Below are positions 30,867 to 35,315 of a stretch of DNA of 64,000 nt, in pieces. Positions within the stretch are counted from its first letter, which is position 1. Every line of letters starts with the position of its first letter. Origin of the DNA: an uncultured delta proteobacterium (GTDB taxonomy: Bacteria > Desulfobacterota > Binatia > UBA9968); the NCBI GenBank assembly GCA_963745835.1, contig CAVUZH010000025.1, positions 32,001-96,000 on the forward strand. Direction: 5' to 3'. The translations under genes and the position numbers were made by a program. The notes below the pieces were generated by a model. The model was not told the DNA's origin and searched no databases. It saw only the letters and a program-made list of their open reading frames with translations.

Positions 30867-32111
30867 ATGTTTTCTCGAGAGGAAAATGAATTCCTCACGC
30901 GAGTAGCGCCCGGCACACCCGTCGGAAATTTGATGCGCAGTTATTGGATCCCGGCGCTGCTGTCGGAGGAAATTTCAGCGGCCGATTGCGACCCTGTCAG
31001 AGTGAGGCTATTGGGTGAAGACCTGGTCGCCTTTCGCGACAGCAACGGGGAAATAGGTCTCTTAGACGAGCACTGTTCGCACCGGGGAACATCGCTTTTT
31101 TTCGGGCGCAATGAGGAGTGCGGTCTGAGGTGCATTTATCATGGATGGAAATACGACGTCGAAGGCAATGTCTTGGAGACGCCCGCCGAGCCCGCCGACA
31201 GCGATTTCAAGAAAAAGATTCATCACACGGCCTATCCTTGTCATGAAACGGCCGGTATCGTCTTCACCTATATGGGGCCGCCCCGGAAGAGGCCCTTGAT
31301 GCCGGCGTATGAGTGGGTCAGCCTGCCTGCCGATCGCATGCATGTCGTCAAGGCCTATCTGGATTGTAACTACCTCCAAGGGATCGAAGGAGATTTTGAT
31401 TCATCGCACACGAGCTTTCTTCATTGCAACAATTTGGCGGACCTCGCGCGGCTCAATCGCGACGGCGCTCCGGCGTTGGAAGCAGAAGCGACGGAGTACG
31501 GGATGAGGGCGATATCGATTAGAAAACTCTCAGCGGACCAAAGCTATGTCCGGATCAGCCCGTTTATCTTGCCCGCTTTTAGCATCGTTCCCGGTCCCGC
31601 CACCGCTAAGTTCGAGGAGCATGATAGCCGCGCGTTTCGCTTCTGGATTCCCCGTGACGATACCAGCACCTGGTTTTATATTTTGACTATGCGCGATGCG
31701 CCGTTTTCAGACGATGAGAGAGCGGCGGCGCGGCGTTGGGTGGATTCGAATTACCGGAGAGTTCGTAATGCCGGCAATGACTATTTACAAGATCGGGAGC
31801 TTCAAAAGACGCGAAGTTATTCAGGCATCAAGGCCGTTATCCCCGCGGAACAGGATGCCTGCGCGACCGAGAGCATGGGACCCGTTTACGATCGTACCCG
31901 TGAGCATCTCGGTTACAGCGACAAGACAATTATCGCCTTGCGTAAGACTCTGCTGCTGGCCGCCAAGTCGGTGCAAGAAGGGCGCGAGCCGCCGCACGTG
32001 ATCGTAGATGGAAAAGATAATGACTTCTCTCGGCTGCGAGCGGTCAAGGGTGTGTTGCCGGCGAATAGTTCCTGGCGCGAGCTGGCGGAATCGGAAAAGG
32101 TGACCGTATGA
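30867..32111 (+). CDS. Rieske non-heme iron oxygenase (phthalate dioxygenase / LigXa-like)
   Basis: CSHR...CIYHGW Rieske motif, EGDFDSSHTSFLH mononuclear-Fe motif, EQDACATESMG, EHLGYSD. Confidence 0.9.
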   Translation: MFSREENEFLTRVAPGTPVGNLMRSYWIPALLSEEISAADCDPVRVRLLGEDLVAFRDSNGEIGLLDEHCSHRGTSLFFGRNEECGLRCIYHGWKYDVEGNVLETPAEPADSDFKKKIHHTAYPCHETAGIVFTYMGPPRKRPLMPAYEWVSLPADRMHVVKAYLDCNYLQGIEGDFDSSHTSFLHCNNLADLARLNRDGAPALEAEATEYGMRAISIRKLSADQSYVRISPFILPAFSIVPGPATAKFEEHDSRAFRFWIPRDDTSTWFYILTMRDAPFSDDERAAARRWVDSNYRRVRNAGNDYLQDRELQKTRSYSGIKAVIPAEQDACATESMGPVYDRTREHLGYSDKTIIALRKTLLLAAKSVQEGREPPHVIVDGKDNDFSRLRAVKGVLPANSSWRELAESEKVTV

Positions 32112-33226
32112 GTGACAGATCGACTTTCGCTCGGAGTATTTGTCACTGTTTCACCATGCCGGCGGCATCACCGTATCGCGGCATCGGTTTCATTGCACTT
32201 GCAATGGCATTCTTTCTAACCGGCCCCTACTTCGCGTCCGCGCAGACGTCTTCCTCGGCTAGACTGCAAAAAGCGGTGGCTATGGTCGGCGCGCGCAGCG
32301 GAGCCTCTTGGCCGCTTTGGTTGGCGAAAGACGGCGGCTATTACCAGAAACACGGCCTCGACGTCGAGCTGGTGTATGCGGTTCACCCGGCGCCCATGGC
32401 AGCCGTGATCAGCGGCCAGGCGGTGATGACTTCCACAGGGGCCGATCTAGGCTTACTTGCAGCCTTCAGAGACCCATCGTTGACTCTGAACGGGAGCTTC
32501 TTGAACAAAGGCAGTTTCGCCATGGTCGCTGCAAAAAATCTGAGTCGCATGGAACAACTTTCCGGCAAGAAAATCGGCATCGGCAGAGTCGGCGACCCTC
32601 CTTATTACATGAGCATCAGCCTGCTGGAAAAATTCGGCGTGACGGCCCGGGACGTACAATGGGTTTCGATCGGTGTGGACGCCGCCGCGCGCGCCGCTGC
32701 GTTGCAGGGTGGCCAAGTCGATGCGGCTCTCGTTACCGCGCCGTCTTATTTTCGGCTGGAAGCCGCTGGTTATCCGATTCTCGCGTCGGTGGCGGATTAT
32801 GAGGACATTTATGTTTCAACCTATCATTTGTTCCGGAAAGAAACGGTTTTAAACACACCGAAGATCGCCGAAGCTTTCATCAAAGCCCACAGCGAAGCCA
32901 TCAAGCGTTTTTACGATGATAAACCCTTCGCGGTTCAGACAATTTTTAAATATGGCGCCGCCCGGGATCAACAGGACGGAAGCAAAGTCTACGAGCTGTT
33001 CAACAAGAGCCGCAGTTTCGAACCGGTGCCCTACGTTCTCAAGGATTCGGTAAAAGCTGTCGTAGAGCGGCAGAGCCAGGCGCAACCGCAAATAAAGCAG
33101 TTCGACTTTTCGAAGGTCATCGACAACAGCATTGTCGACCGGCTTGCGAAAGAGGGATTTTTTCAGCAGATCTTCGGATCATCGATTAGAGAGTTGCAGC
33201 AGAAGCGTAAGTCGCAGTCTTTTTAG
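32108..33226 (+). CDS. ABC-type substrate-binding protein (NMT1/SsuA-like)
   Basis: GYYQKHGLDVELV, ALQGGQVDA, IDNSIVDRL; ATGA overlap with the Rieske gene. Confidence 0.87.
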   Translation: MSDRSTFARSICHCFTMPAASPYRGIGFIALAMAFFLTGPYFASAQTSSSARLQKAVAMVGARSGASWPLWLAKDGGYYQKHGLDVELVYAVHPAPMAAVISGQAVMTSTGADLGLLAAFRDPSLTLNGSFLNKGSFAMVAAKNLSRMEQLSGKKIGIGRVGDPPYYMSISLLEKFGVTARDVQWVSIGVDAAARAAALQGGQVDAALVTAPSYFRLEAAGYPILASVADYEDIYVSTYHLFRKETVLNTPKIAEAFIKAHSEAIKRFYDDKPFAVQTIFKYGAARDQQDGSKVYELFNKSRSFEPVPYVLKDSVKAVVERQSQAQPQIKQFDFSKVIDNSIVDRLAKEGFFQQIFGSSIRELQQKRKSQSF

Positions 33227-33275
33227 TCTAGCAGGGTTCCTGAAAAAACTCTGATTGCAGGCGGCTCCAAAAGAC

Positions 33276-34217
33276 TCAGAGGCGAGAGTAAGAAAAAGAG
33301 TAGATGTTGATAAAAGAGTTAAGAAAAGAGAGAAGTAAGAGAAAGAAAGAGAAAAGAGAGAAATGGGAGATTAAAAGAAGAAAAGAGATATAAGGTAGAA
33401 AAAATAGGATAGAAGAGAAAAGAAGAAGAGAGAAGAAAGAAGAGAAGTAGAGAGAGGAAAGAAAAGAAGAAAGAAAGAGAAAAAAGGAGAGAAGGAAAAG
33501 AAAAAAAAAAATATAAAAAAAAAGAGGAGAGAAAAAAAAGAGAGAAGAGATATGAAAAAGATAAAGATGAAAAAGATAAGGAAGAGAGGAAAGAAAAGAG
33601 AGAATGAAGAAGGGAAAGATAAGAGGAAAAATATAGAGAAGATATAATAGATAAAGAGAGAAAGGAATATGAGGGAAGAGAAGAAAAAGATAGATAAAGA
33701 AGAGAGAAAGAAAAGATAAGAAGAGAAAGAAAATGAGAAAAAATAAGTTTGAGAAAGGAAAAGAAGATAAGAGAAAGAGGATAAGTAAAAGAGGAGAAGA
33801 AAATAGGTGAGATGGAGAAGAGGAGAGAAGAGAGAGAGAAGATATAGGATAGAAGGAGAGGGAAAAGAGAGAAGAGAGGGAAGAAAGGATAATAGAAAGA
33901 GAGAGAAGAAAAAGGAAAAGATAAAATAGGTATAGGAGAAAAGAAGGATAGATAAGGAGAAGAGAAGAGAATAGGAGAGGGTAAAAGAAGAAGAAGGGGA
34001 ATGAGGAAGAGAGAGAGAGAAAGAAAAGAATAAGAAGATAGACGAGAAGGGTGGATAAGAAAAAAAGAAAAGAGAATAAGAGAGAAAGAAAAGGTATAAG
34101 AAGAGAGAAGATAAGAGCCTCTAGATTCGGGATAGATTCTCTACTACCGCCCGGACGCATAGCGATATCCAGCGTAGCTTTCGATACGTCGATTCCGACA
34201 AACAAGCTCTCTACCAC
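33276..34217 (-). pseudogene. IS110-family DEDD recombinase/transposase; intact N-terminus, remainder converted purine-to-T
   Basis: GGAGG RBS, GTG start, VGIDVSKATLD. 314 codons, a typical IS110 length. Converted motifs FPFFFFYP (LPVVVVNP), FPLIFP (VPGIGP), LPYLFHL (LPELGQL), LLSFLNSF (LLTILNAM). Confidence 0.85.
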
Positions 34218-34325
34218 AATCCAATCCTCCTTCCTGTTAACCCCCTCCAGCATGGCTCAACCTTCCACATGATGCGGGCTTATCAGCCCAGGCAACTGTT
34301 CGAGCTCTCGCAGAGGCAGGACGGG
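33284..34325 (-). mobile_element. IS110-family element (damaged) inserted in a REP-like repeat
   Basis: Joined flanks (tgcaggcggctccaaaagactcagaggc | aaggcgcgcgag) resemble the 11189 repeat (tgcagctgctcaaaaagacctcaggggcaaggcgcgcgaag). Confidence 0.7.
34252..34325 (-). ncRNA. Partial IS110 bridge RNA (donor-binding-loop-like)
   Basis: CUCGAACAGUUGCCUGGGCUGAUAAGCCCGCAUCAUGUGGAAGGUUGAG immediately upstream of the recombinase resembles the IS621 donor-binding loop as I recall it. Confidence 0.55.
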
Positions 34326-34430
34326 AAGGCGCGCGAGATTGGCATATGGCTGATAGCCTATGGCGCACAGATCGAACCAAGGAAACATACGCCGTAAGCC
34401 ACCTGCCAACTATCGTTACGGAGGTGAACC

Positions 34431-35315
34431 ATGGGTAAATTTCGTATTCTATCGCACGCGCGCCTGCAAGAATGGGTCGCGGAAGAGAGCGGCTATTTCA
34501 AGCAGGTCGGTTTGGATTACGAGTTCGTTGTCAAACCGGCCGCGGGCTGGTCCGCCCATGTAGCGTCTACCGAATCGGTGCCGGAGGAAATAAAAAACGG
34601 CGCCTTCGAATCGTATGAAGCCGGCCGAGGCTGCGACGTCAGCGCCGCTTGCCATTGGGCGGTGAATATGGCGGCTTCTGCGGGACACGGCCGCATGTGG
34701 GCCCATGCCTACTCCGTCACTCCTTCAGGCATTTTCGTGCCGCCTGATTCTCCCATCGAAAAACCAGCCGATCTGGCCGGAGTCGATGTGACCGTCGGCT
34801 ATCATTCGGGCAGTCACTTTTCTACCCTGCAGGCGCTTGAGACCTTTCTCAAGCCCGAAGAGATAAAGCTCCACTTTGCCGGTCTGCCGTTAGACCGATT
34901 AGCTTTGATGGTCGATCGAAAGGTCGGGGCGGCGAGCCTGTACGGCGCTCCGATGTACGTGCTGGAGCAGCTCGGGTTCAGGAAAATTGTCGACACGACG
35001 TTCATGATCGGATTCCTGGTCGCCGCCGAGGTTAAGGACAGCGACGCCAAGCTCTACTTCGAGGCGTTGCGCCTTGCGCAGGTCGCGATCGATCTGGAAC
35101 CCGAGCGCTACAAGCATTATTTTTTGAACGAGCTGCCGGAGCGCTATCACGCCATGGTCGATGTCCGGACCTTCGGTATCGGCGAGCGGCTGGTGTTCGA
35201 GCCCTATACTCGAGAGATGTTTGAGCAAACGCATCGTTGGATGATGAACTGGAAAATGTTTCCAGCGGAGCAGTCGGGAAATTGGGCTTATGACGACCGC
35301 GGTGTCTGTAGATGA
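34431..35315 (+). CDS. Type-2 periplasmic-binding-fold protein (NMT1/DszB-like), no obvious signal peptide
   Basis: WVAEESGYFKQVGLDYEF, DLAGVDVTVGYHSGSHF; GGAGG RBS. Confidence 0.75.
   Translation: MGKFRILSHARLQEWVAEESGYFKQVGLDYEFVVKPAAGWSAHVASTESVPEEIKNGAFESYEAGRGCDVSAACHWAVNMAASAGHGRMWAHAYSVTPSGIFVPPDSPIEKPADLAGVDVTVGYHSGSHFSTLQALETFLKPEEIKLHFAGLPLDRLALMVDRKVGAASLYGAPMYVLEQLGFRKIVDTTFMIGFLVAAEVKDSDAKLYFEALRLAQVAIDLEPERYKHYFLNELPERYHAMVDVRTFGIGERLVFEPYTREMFEQTHRWMMNWKMFPAEQSGNWAYDDRGVCR

What the first reader, a model, noticed from the sequence alone, without database searches (positions are those of the whole stretch)
33284..34117. Purine tract is a 'ghost' IS110 recombinase with strand-specific purine-to-T conversion
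Seen: the + strand has a single C (34043) in about 830 nt. The tract continues directly from an intact IS110 N-terminus (VGIDVSK), and start to stop spans 314 codons. Canonical IS110 motifs survive codon by codon if coding-strand G (nearly always) and A (often) are read as T while C and T are kept: LPVVVVNP->FPFFFFYP, SVPGIGP->IFPLIFP, LPELGQLNRKQIAAL->LPYLFHLYLFHISSL, APL->SPL, ALYMAA->SLYFSS, LLTILNAM->LLSFLNSF. The middle section loses register, which implies indels. Inference, most likely: a basecalling or consensus-polishing artefact over an insertion supported by few reads; the island has many other frameshifts. Inference, if real: an undescribed element-restricted, one-strand hypermutation that silences an IS. 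Its spectrum (A inserted opposite template purines) matches A-rule synthesis across depurinated DNA, not deamination, RIP or DGR mutagenesis.
Basis: partly seen in the sequence, partly recalled or inferred. Interest (0 to 1): 0.85.

Follow-up and report, generated by a model that had tools for sequence, protein, structure and literature searches.

The report
Garbled IS110 gene: sequencing artefact
The C-free purine tract is a scrambled but still recognisable copy of an ordinary IS110 transposase gene, and it is most likely a sequencing or consensus error inside a strain-specific insertion, not a new biological mutation process.

Summary
Window 33284-34117 has A 498, G 264, T 71 and C 1.

The "ghost" reading also holds. 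On the minus strand the tract is collinear with an intact 325-aa IS110 gene from a related genome (L017). The model score is 88.6-90.1, against 17.6 +/- 1.6 for 200 shuffles and a maximum of 32.2 for 300 random genome segments.

At 302 positions invariant among homologues, the coding-strand channel is C->C 60/63, T->T 72/75, G->T 87/97 and A->A/T 33/30 of 67.

The IS (about 33287-34326) sits in a REP-like repeat. The whole insertion is absent from the closest relative.

Four points argue against biology:
- The genome's only other such tract (contig C22) is a ghost of a non-IS TylF methyltransferase gene. Its channel differs and drifts from C->T to C->A.
- Both tracts carry frameshifting 1-nt indels.
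- The flanks are clean.
- IS copies in this assembly differ by homopolymer indels.

Most likely a single mis-decoded long read survived consensus where no other read covered the insertion.

The parts
32108..33226 (+). Upstream flanking gene, an NMT1/THI5-like substrate-binding protein of 372 aa. It is intact.
   Evidence: ORF list. Pfam NMT1, E 1.1e-17. 96.6% identical to G004 over 1727 nt with 0 gaps.
33227..33286 (.). Left half of a REP-like intergenic repeat, ending ...GACTCAGAGGCGAG. This part of the insertion is absent in G004.
   Evidence: 10 other copies of the core in the same genome. Aligned copies continue with GCGCGCGA..., which the window shows only at 34329. In G004 only 12 nt separate the two flanking genes.
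33287..34326 (-). IS110-family insertion sequence of about 1040 nt, flanked on both sides by AG (CT on the IS coding strand). The end coordinates are good to about 2 nt.
   Evidence: The 5' end is set by where homology to six full-length relatives stops, at 34326-34333. The 3' end is set by the break in the REP-like repeat. The relative's ORF has PF01548 and PF02371.
33284..34117 (-). The garbled ('ghost') tract. About 831 nt of the IS are affected, from its 3' terminus to codon 46. The coding-strand channel is G to T, A to A or T, with C and T kept.
   Evidence: Composition. Collinearity and score. Channel matrix at invariant positions.
34118..34253 (-). Normally read N-terminal 45 codons of the IS110 transposase, including FVGIDVSK.
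   Evidence: Translation. Head alignment to L017 with one in-frame 3-nt gap (output). 79.5% identity over 205 nt.
34254..34326 (-). 5' non-coding end of the IS, 73 nt.
   Evidence: Homology to L017, L023, L024 and L026-L028 extends to 34326-34333. There is no Rfam match.
34327..34419 (.). Right half of the REP-like repeat: AG, then GCGCGCGAGATTGG... This part is also absent in G004.
   Evidence: Matches to short repeats in relatives for query 1628-1702.
33276..34253 (-). The ORF as a gene caller would read it: 325 codons, mostly F/L/S/P. It is a false protein beyond residue 45.
   Evidence: ORF list. No Pfam family at E <= 1. The exact protein is not in the 15-billion-sequence collection.
34431..35315 (+). 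Downstream flanking gene of 294 aa, with a weak NMT1-like match.
   Evidence: 92.5% identical to G004 over 815 nt with 0 gaps.

Best explanation
What is really in the genome is an ordinary, compact IS110-family insertion sequence of about 1040 nt, on the minus strand. It is inserted in a REP-like intergenic repeat between two NMT1-like genes.

About 80% of it (33287-34117) is written wrongly in the assembly. Over that stretch the sequence passed through a lossy, strand-specific read-out. In plus-strand terms C was never emitted: it appears as A, rarely as G. About half of the T appear as A. G and A were kept, and small indels were added.

The most likely cause is a single long read whose signal was mis-decoded for about 0.8 kb. 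It was probably a nanopore read, but the platform is not known. That read was the only support for a strain-specific insertion. The consensus step could correct the shared flank up to the IS junction but had nothing to correct the IS interior with.

Shown here:
- the ghost identity and the channel;
- the insertion status and the exact junction;
- a second tract with another, drifting channel;
- the indel pattern.

Inferred, not shown: the platform, single-read support, and the failure of polishing.
For: (1) Ghost identity.
- The local model score of the tract against the intact L017 gene is 90.1. 200 shuffles of the tract give 17.6 +/- 1.6 (max 25.2), and the reversed tract gives 18.2.
- On a slightly different slice the score is 88.6. 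300 random 850-nt genome segments give 18.2 +/- 2.1 (max 32.2), the wrong strand gives 19.9, and the 8 distant IS110 copies of the same genome give 17.1-21.5.
- The 9 other homologues of the same subfamily give 25.2-78.1.
- Of 81 deterministic base maps, the two best are A>A,C>C,G>T,T>T (28.4) and A>T,C>C,G>T,T>T (25.9). The median is 16.5.

(2) Channel at 302 positions invariant in at least 6 of 10 homologues: C->C 60/63, T->T 72/75, G->T 87/97 (G->C 10), A->A 33/67, A->T 30/67.

(3) Collinearity over nearly the whole gene. One dominant diagonal per region, with offsets +3, -1, -2, -3.

(4) Indels. The global alignment needs 13 gap events: ten of 1 nt, and one each of 2, 4 and 5 nt. None is a multiple of three. 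The normally read head has a single in-frame 3-nt gap (output). The flanks have 0 gaps over 1727 + 815 nt against G004. The tract has one C in 834 nt, so it has not aged by ordinary mutation. The indels therefore belong to the same event as the substitutions, as in raw long-read error.

(5) Insertion status. Window 33227-34419 is an insertion: in G004 the flanks lie 12 nt apart. The garbling starts at the IS/REP junction, within 2 nt. That is expected if reads lacking the IS corrected the draft up to the junction.

(6) Second tract. It lies at C22:126875-127866 and is also an insertion absent from G004 and G006.
- It is a ghost of a TylF-family methyltransferase gene (BLAST E 1e-25 and 3e-20; Pfam 9e-40).
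- Its channel drifts. C->T is 18/19, 22/24 and 27/31 in tract positions 81-380. C->A is then 12/22, 16/24 and 9/21 in positions 600-860.
- A->T is 11/24 early and G->A is 8/21 late.
- It has frameshifting gaps of +1, -4 and -1.
- Its flanking 57/58-nt duplication differs by one homopolymer base.

(7) Assembly error profile. Two IS copies differ only by two 1-nt homopolymer indels in 1574 nt.

(8) Precedent. Strand-specific nanopore miscalling that turns (CCCTAA)n into pyrimidine-only (CTTCTT)n and (TTAGGG)n into (TTAAAA)n is documented (PMC9414165, passages read). Highly erroneous regions inside long reads are the reason read scrubbing exists (bioRxiv 10.1101/674036, passages read).
Against:
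- Both tracts lie in insertions. A biological process aimed at newly acquired DNA would predict that too.
- The window's spectrum (G almost always and A half the time to T on one strand) fits the A-rule/depurination idea neatly.
- One boundary coincides with the IS terminus.
- The published nanopore precedent concerns tandem repeats, not unique coding sequence. I found no published description of a unique gene garbled in this information-preserving way.
- The flanks are of good quality, so genome-wide coverage is not uniformly poor.
Confidence: 0.86

Rival explanations
1. The tract is real DNA made in vivo. A strand-specific hypermutation acts on newly inserted DNA (an IS here, a gene-sized insertion on C22). 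For example, one strand could lose its purines or be read by an error-prone polymerase that writes A opposite damaged template bases, which silences the insert.
For: The channel in the window matches A-rule synthesis opposite purines of the coding strand: G->T 87/97 and A->T 30/67. Both tracts lie in insertions absent from sister genomes. One boundary falls on the IS terminus.
Against: - The second tract has another channel (C->T), which changes to C->A half-way, with A->T fading and G->A appearing. No single chemistry does that.
- It hits a methyltransferase gene, not an IS.
- The 5' 209 nt of the IS, which include the start of the gene, are untouched.
- Conversion is near-complete with a boundary sharp to 1-2 nt.
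- Frameshifting indels accompany the substitutions, while only 1 C has arisen in 834 nt.
- Near-complete loss of G on one strand would break the strand (established chemistry of abasic sites; my knowledge).
- The literature search returned nothing relevant (listing only).
Confidence: 0.04
2. The tract is an in-vitro chemical artefact. A single-stranded or damaged stretch of one template molecule was depurinated or deaminated during extraction or library preparation. A repair or amplification polymerase then copied it, and the molecule was read correctly.
For: Depurination with the A-rule would give the window's spectrum, and cytosine deamination would give the C->T of the first half of the C22 tract. 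Both are the main hydrolytic damages of single-stranded DNA (my knowledge).
Against: - Conversion of about 90-100% of a base within sharp limits and 0% outside is not how random hydrolysis behaves.
- C->A replaces C->T in the second half of the C22 tract, and G->A and A->T come and go.
- The many 1-nt indels are not explained.
Confidence: 0.06
3. The tract is a natural polypurine low-complexity region unrelated to IS110, and the motif matches are chance products of a three-letter alphabet.
For: Low-complexity text gives many degenerate matches. The open reading frame by itself is not significant (P about 0.3, from the counts).
Against: The score is about 44 standard deviations above shuffles and far above 300 random genome segments. 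A single diagonal dominates over about 800 nt. The signal is specific to the closest IS110 subfamily and to the correct strand. The ORF has the same length and start as the intact relative.
Confidence: 0.01

Closest known systems
Strand-specific nanopore basecalling errors at telomeric repeats (Tan, Slevin, Meyerson, Li, Genome Biol 2022, PMC9414165; abstract and passages read)
   Same: The substitution is systematic, occurs on one strand only and keeps length roughly intact. The outputs use a reduced alphabet: (CCCTAA)n read as pyrimidine-only (CTTCTT)n, and (TTAGGG)n as (TTAAAA)n. The authors attribute it to similar current profiles.
   Different: That case concerns tandem repeats and recurs in many reads. 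Here a unique coding sequence of about 0.8 kb is affected, apparently once, and the error reached the final consensus. The platform of this assembly is unknown.
Highly erroneous regions inside long reads, the target of read scrubbing (DASCRUBBER, MiniScrub, yacrd; bioRxiv 10.1101/674036, passages read)
   Same: These are stretches inside otherwise good reads that other reads do not support. They degrade assemblies if not removed.
   Different: Those papers treat such regions as noise. Here the junk still carries enough information (C and T kept, G to T) to identify the gene.
IS110-family insertion sequences (DEDD transposase PF01548 plus PF02371) inserted in REP-like repeats
   Same: The underlying element is one. 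The N-terminus and 5' end are homologous to full-length relatives. The gene is collinear. It is inserted inside a repeated intergenic element with AG on both sides. That IS110 members target REP sequences and share a core dinucleotide with their target is recalled knowledge, not tested here.
   Different: This copy cannot be read as protein beyond residue 45 in the assembly. Whether the real copy is intact is unknown.
Biological hypermutation systems: fungal RIP, APOBEC editing, DGR mutagenic retrohoming
   Same: Each gives a dense, directional base conversion confined to a defined stretch.
   Different: RIP and APOBEC give C to T (G to A), and DGR changes template A only (recalled). The window shows G to T plus A to T, with indels. 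The sister tract has a drifting spectrum.

Membership tests
IS110 family (for the underlying element) | N-terminal DEDD_Tnp_IS110 domain (PF01548) | tested here: inconclusive
   The window ORF matches no Pfam family at E <= 1 because it is garbled, and PF01548 found no match at this locus. However, the first 45 codons and the 5' end are homologous to L017 (79.5% over 205 nt). L017's ORF has PF01548 at 2.7e-24, and the ghost is collinear with it.
IS110 family (for the underlying element) | C-terminal Transposase_20 domain (PF02371) | tested here: inconclusive
   Not detectable in the written sequence. The ghost of SAPGIGP...LPELGRLNRKQIAAL lies on a single diagonal (offset -3), with window scores up to 22 bits. 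L017 has PF02371 at 4.4e-20.
IS110 family (for the underlying element) | A discrete element present or absent between related genomes, inserted at a specific repeat without long target duplication | tested here: met
   Empty site in G004. A split REP-like repeat with only AG on both sides.
Long-read mis-decoding artefact kept by consensus | A systematic substitution on one strand with a reduced alphabet, not explained by one chemistry | tested here: met
   Channel matrices of the two tracts differ, and one drifts along its length.
Long-read mis-decoding artefact kept by consensus | Raw-read-like small indels inside the stretch, with clean sequence outside | tested here: met
   13 gap events, none a multiple of 3, and at least 3 diagonal shifts. 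Against this, 0 gaps in 2542 nt of flank. Gaps of +1, -4 and -1 in the C22 ghost.
Long-read mis-decoding artefact kept by consensus | Support by one or very few reads, and normal sequence in the other reads or after re-basecalling | not testable with these tools
The platform and the reads of the assembly are unknown.
   Met in the window. The only other tract shows C->T, then C->A, with G mostly kept.
RIP / cytosine-deaminase hypermutation | C to T (G to A) transitions as the only change | tested here: not met
   The window changes are G->T and A->T transversions.
DGR mutagenic retrohoming | Changes confined to template adenines, with a template repeat and a reverse transcriptase nearby | tested here: not met
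   G->T 87/97 is the main change. No second copy of the region exists in the genome. A reverse transcriptase was not searched for.

The most novel reading that the evidence does not exclude
The tracts are real DNA. In this soil bacterium, newly inserted DNA (an IS110 copy here, a methyltransferase-gene-sized insert on contig C22) would be rewritten on one strand by a polar, error-prone copying process. The process would start at an insertion junction, never write C, and so destroy the incoming gene: a bacterial counterpart of RIP acting by transversions.
Probability: 0.04. Interest if true: 0.9.

Novelty: not a real feature. Interest (0 to 1): 0.15.

Why it matters
As biology it is ordinary: an IS110 copy in a REP-like repeat, variable between strains.

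As data quality it is useful.
- Public genomes built from long reads can carry kilobase stretches that look like exotic low-complexity DNA or hypermutation, and that gene callers turn into false F/L/S-rich proteins.
- Such stretches can be recognised by a run that lacks one base.
- Because the garbling is a lossy channel and not noise, the original gene can still be identified by aligning under a reduced alphabet.
- Both cases in this genome sit in strain-variable insertions. That is exactly where consensus has least support, and where a reader is most tempted to see genome defence.

Tried and rejected
Searches that found nothing
- Source copy in the same genome. The IS head (34100-34330) has no second copy. 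The 9 PF01548 matches of the genome belong to other, distant IS110 lineages, and their model scores are at noise level.
- Closer intact relatives. An exact 32-mer of the IS head gave 0 hits in metagenome contigs. The N-terminal 50 aa gave 27 loci, none closer than L017; the best were 82% over 22 residues. L017 stayed the proxy, at about 80% DNA identity. Its own divergence therefore inflates the off-diagonal cells of the all-position matrix, which is why I restricted the matrix to invariant columns.
- Origin of the C22 tract in the same genome. BLAST against a C-to-T converted copy of the genome gave only low-complexity noise, first against the window tract itself and then at about 60-70% identity. 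The source gene was found in a relative instead.
- Rfam on the window 32900-34700 and on L017 and L024: no match at E <= 0.1.
- The exact garbled protein is not in the protein collection.
- Literature on bacterial IS-directed strand-specific hypermutation: 7 papers held 4 of the 5 terms, 6 were listed, and none was relevant by title or abstract (listing only).

Analyses that were weak or not informative
- The ungapped comparison of the two 978-nt ORFs was uninformative because of small indels.
- Context dependence of A retention. Only a weak effect of the 3' neighbour was seen: A was kept 23/37 before G against 33/100 before the other three bases (chi-square p 0.017, uncorrected). There was no trend along the tract: 13/35, 14/34, 13/34, 16/34. 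This is not used as evidence.
- G001:C183 and G006:C23 looked like closer IS copies. They are only 134-139-nt fragments of the IS 5' end beside unrelated genes.

Steps that could not be completed
- Sequencing runs. 24 runs were listed and 20 hold part of the 2101-nt query. The best share of words is 0.46, and the two flanks alone make up 908/2101 = 43%. Nothing was laid, so this is not evidence that the tract is absent from reads.
- Supplements of the two papers were not seen.
- A survey of base-free runs in other genomes of the family, to compare few-contig with many-contig assemblies, could not be run (see below).

Unpublished genomes
- The tallies include the unpublished genomes G012 and G018. 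No claim in this report rests on them.

Full report
OBSERVATION
Window 33284-34117 (834 nt) contains A 498, G 264, T 71 and a single C, at 34043. The C-free runs of 759 and 74 nt compare with a next-longest run of 29 nt in the 64-kb window. GC skew is 1.000 in six 200-nt windows across the tract and 0.971 in the next. The sequence is not a tandem repeat; it is non-periodic purine-rich text.

In the whole 7.28-Mb, 25-contig assembly, only six runs of 90 nt or more lack one base. They are this tract, four adjacent pieces of one second C-free tract at C22:126875-127866, and a 103-nt A-free run on C23.

On the minus strand an ORF of 325 codons (33276..34253) starts MLEGVNRKEDWIVVESLFVGIDVSKATLDIAMRPGGSRESIPNLEA. 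It then continues as F/L/S/P/Y/I text only. Pfam sees nothing in it (0 families at E <= 1).

THE GHOST READING IS CORRECT
A search of 31 related genomes with 2.1 kb around the tract found an intact relative of the IS head in G015. The locus L017 carries an ORF of 325 aa on its minus strand that starts MLEASRKKEDW...FVGIDVSK. It has PF01548 (2.7e-24) and PF02371 (4.4e-20). It has the same start and the same length as the window's ORF.

In that model coding-strand C and T are kept, G goes to T, and A goes to T or A, with log-odds taken against the tract's own composition.
- The local score is 90.1. 200 shuffles of the tract give 17.6 +/- 1.6 (max 25.2), and the reversed tract gives 18.2.
- On a slightly different slice L017 scores 88.6. 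The nine other members of the same subfamily from other genomes score 25.2-78.1. The eight distant IS110 copies of the same genome score 17.1-21.5.
- 300 random 850-nt segments of the genome score 18.2 +/- 2.1 (max 32.2). L017 on the wrong strand scores 19.9.
- Among all 81 deterministic maps onto A, C and T, the two best are A>A,C>C,G>T,T>T (28.4) and A>T,C>C,G>T,T>T (25.9). The median is 16.5.

A gap-free diagonal scan shows one dominant diagonal per region. The offset is +3 at CDS 160-234, -1 at 280-444, -2 at 490-534 and -3 at 520-954. The tract is therefore collinear with the gene over almost its whole length and has a few small shifts.

To remove the roughly 20% divergence between L017 and the true original, I kept only positions invariant in at least 6 of 10 homologues. 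That left 302 aligned positions, with these outcomes:
- C->C 60/63
- T->T 72/75
- G->T 87/97 (G->C 10)
- A->A 33/67, A->T 30/67, A->C 4/67

In plus-strand terms C is read as A, about half of T is read as A, and G and A are kept.

WHAT AND WHERE THE ELEMENT IS
In the same-genus genome G004 the two flanking genes are contiguous, with 12 nt between the stop codon and the ribosome-binding site. Window 33227-34419 is an insertion.

Homology to six full-length IS relatives stops at 34326-34333. The sequence left of the tract (...GACTCAGAGGCGAG) belongs to a REP-like repeat with 10 other copies in this genome. In those copies it continues GCGCGCGA..., and the window shows that continuation only at 34329.

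So the IS (about 33287-34326, roughly 1040 nt, with AG on both sides) sits inside a REP-like element, and that element is itself absent from this intergenic site in G004.

The garbled stretch starts at the 3' terminus of the IS, within 2 nt, and runs 831 nt inward. The 5' 209 nt are left intact: 73 nt of non-coding end plus 45 codons. The stop codon of the apparent ORF comes from the repeat.

WHY THIS IS MOST LIKELY AN ARTEFACT
First, the only other tract of this kind in the genome is not an IS.
- C22:126875-127866 is an insertion of about 985 nt, absent from G004 and G006. Those genomes carry a single copy of the 58 nt that flank it on both sides in G000.
- Its middle aligns to two contigs of G005 at 66-68% identity (E 1e-25 and 3e-20). 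In the longer alignment, C->T is 67 of the 92 aligned C. A->A is 81/107, G->G 107/129 and T->T 102/113.
- The G005 gene is a TylF-family O-methyltransferase (Pfam 9e-40).

Second, its channel differs from the window's and drifts along the tract.
- C->T is 18/19, 22/24 and 27/31 at tract positions 81-380.
- C->A is then 12/22, 16/24 and 9/21 at positions 600-860.
- A->T is 11/24 at the start and disappears. G->A rises to 8/21 at the end.
- C is never written in either tract, but what replaces it changes. This is what a failing decoder of an analogue signal would do, not what a chemical or enzymatic mutation process would do.

Third, both ghosts carry frameshifting small indels.
- In the window there are 13 gap events: ten of 1 nt and one each of 2, 4 and 5 nt. 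None is a multiple of three. The gap-free scan shows at least three diagonal shifts.
- In C22 the gaps are +1, -4 and -1.
- The normally read IS head has one in-frame 3-nt gap (output). The flanks show 0 gaps against G004 over 1727 + 815 nt.
- Only one C has appeared in 834 nt, so the tract has not had time to decay by ordinary mutation. The indels belong to the same event as the substitutions.

Fourth, the assembly shows the error profile of long reads.
- Two IS copies differ only by two 1-nt homopolymer indels in 1574 nt. Another pair shows 8 single-base gaps in 1409 nt.
- The two copies of the C22 flanking duplication differ by one base in a C run.

Fifth, there is precedent. Nanopore basecallers are documented to miscall one strand systematically into a reduced alphabet: (CCCTAA)n to (CTTCTT)n and (TTAGGG)n to (TTAAAA)n (PMC9414165, passages read). 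Highly erroneous regions inside long reads are a recognised problem for uncorrected assembly (bioRxiv 10.1101/674036, passages read).

The coincidence of both tracts with insertions, and of one boundary with the IS junction, fits this reading. Reads from cells without the insertion correct the draft up to the junction and cannot correct beyond it. The same coincidence would also be expected from a defence process aimed at new DNA, so by itself it does not decide.

WHAT IS NOT SHOWN
I have no read-level evidence. The look-up of sequencing runs listed 24 runs.

The platform, single-read support and the polishing history are therefore inferences. I put the artefact at 0.86, an in-vitro damage artefact at 0.06, real in-vivo hypermutation at 0.04, and a chance resemblance at 0.01.

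COMPARISON WITH WHAT IS KNOWN
The underlying element works like, and by homology is, an IS110-family insertion sequence in a REP-like target. The two Pfam domains cannot be detected in the written sequence, so those two membership rows are marked inconclusive, not met.

The tract works like a strand-specific basecalling error. It differs from the published telomere case in that it affects unique coding sequence and reached the consensus.

It does not match the known hypermutation systems:
- RIP or APOBEC editing, which give only C to T changes;
- DGR mutagenesis, which changes only template A;
- a single A-rule process, because the second tract has another spectrum.

VERDICT
As biology it is not a real feature; as a quality-control lesson it has modest value. 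Interest 0.15.

Noticed in passing
G000:C22:126875-127866 (L011 2876-3867): A second C-free tract of about 990 nt. It is a garbled copy of a TylF-family methyltransferase gene. C reads as T in the first half and as A or T in the second. It is flanked by a 57/58-nt direct duplication whose copies differ by one homopolymer base. The insertion is absent from G004 and G006.
   Followed up: yes
window 33227-33286 and 34327-34419; also G000 C18:251968, C18:277500, C12:15735, C3:179027, C3:501742, C3:322054, C13:40735: A REP-like intergenic repeat (core ...CTCTGATTGCAGGCTGCTCAAAAAGA..CAGAGGCGAGGCGCGCGAAAAA...), with 10 other copies in this genome and many in relatives. The same motif lies next to the 415-aa IS110 copies L001, L002 and L004, so it may be a common IS110 target.
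   Followed up: partly
window 33285-33288 and 34327-34328: AG (CT on the IS coding strand) stands on both sides of the IS. This is reminiscent of the shared core dinucleotide of IS110-type recombination; that property is recalled, not tested.
   Followed up: no
window 34254-34326; L017 1632-1705 and below 654: This IS110 lineage is very compact, about 1.04 kb. It has only about 73 nt of 5' non-coding sequence, and the ORF runs to the 3' end of the element. That leaves little room for a non-coding guide RNA of the size described for IS110 elements (recalled). No Rfam match was found.
   Followed up: partly
L018 (G001:C183:335-469) and L042 (G006:C23:29695-29823): Isolated fragments of 134-139 nt of the 5' end of the same IS lineage (83-89% identity), lying downstream of a sensor kinase / response-regulator gene with no transposase gene attached.
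   Followed up: partly
G000 C5:169818-170243 vs C15:12236-12661 (L007/L008); C22:70372 vs C19:502671 (L005/L006); C16:90711-91180 (L004/L009): Near-identical IS110 copies differ by 1-nt homopolymer indels that truncate or split the transposase ORFs (314 vs 363 aa; 356 + 101 aa). These are probably consensus errors, not real pseudogenes.
   Followed up: partly
G000:C23:10608-10710: A 103-nt run without A (T 28, C 32, G 43). It was not examined.
   Followed up: no
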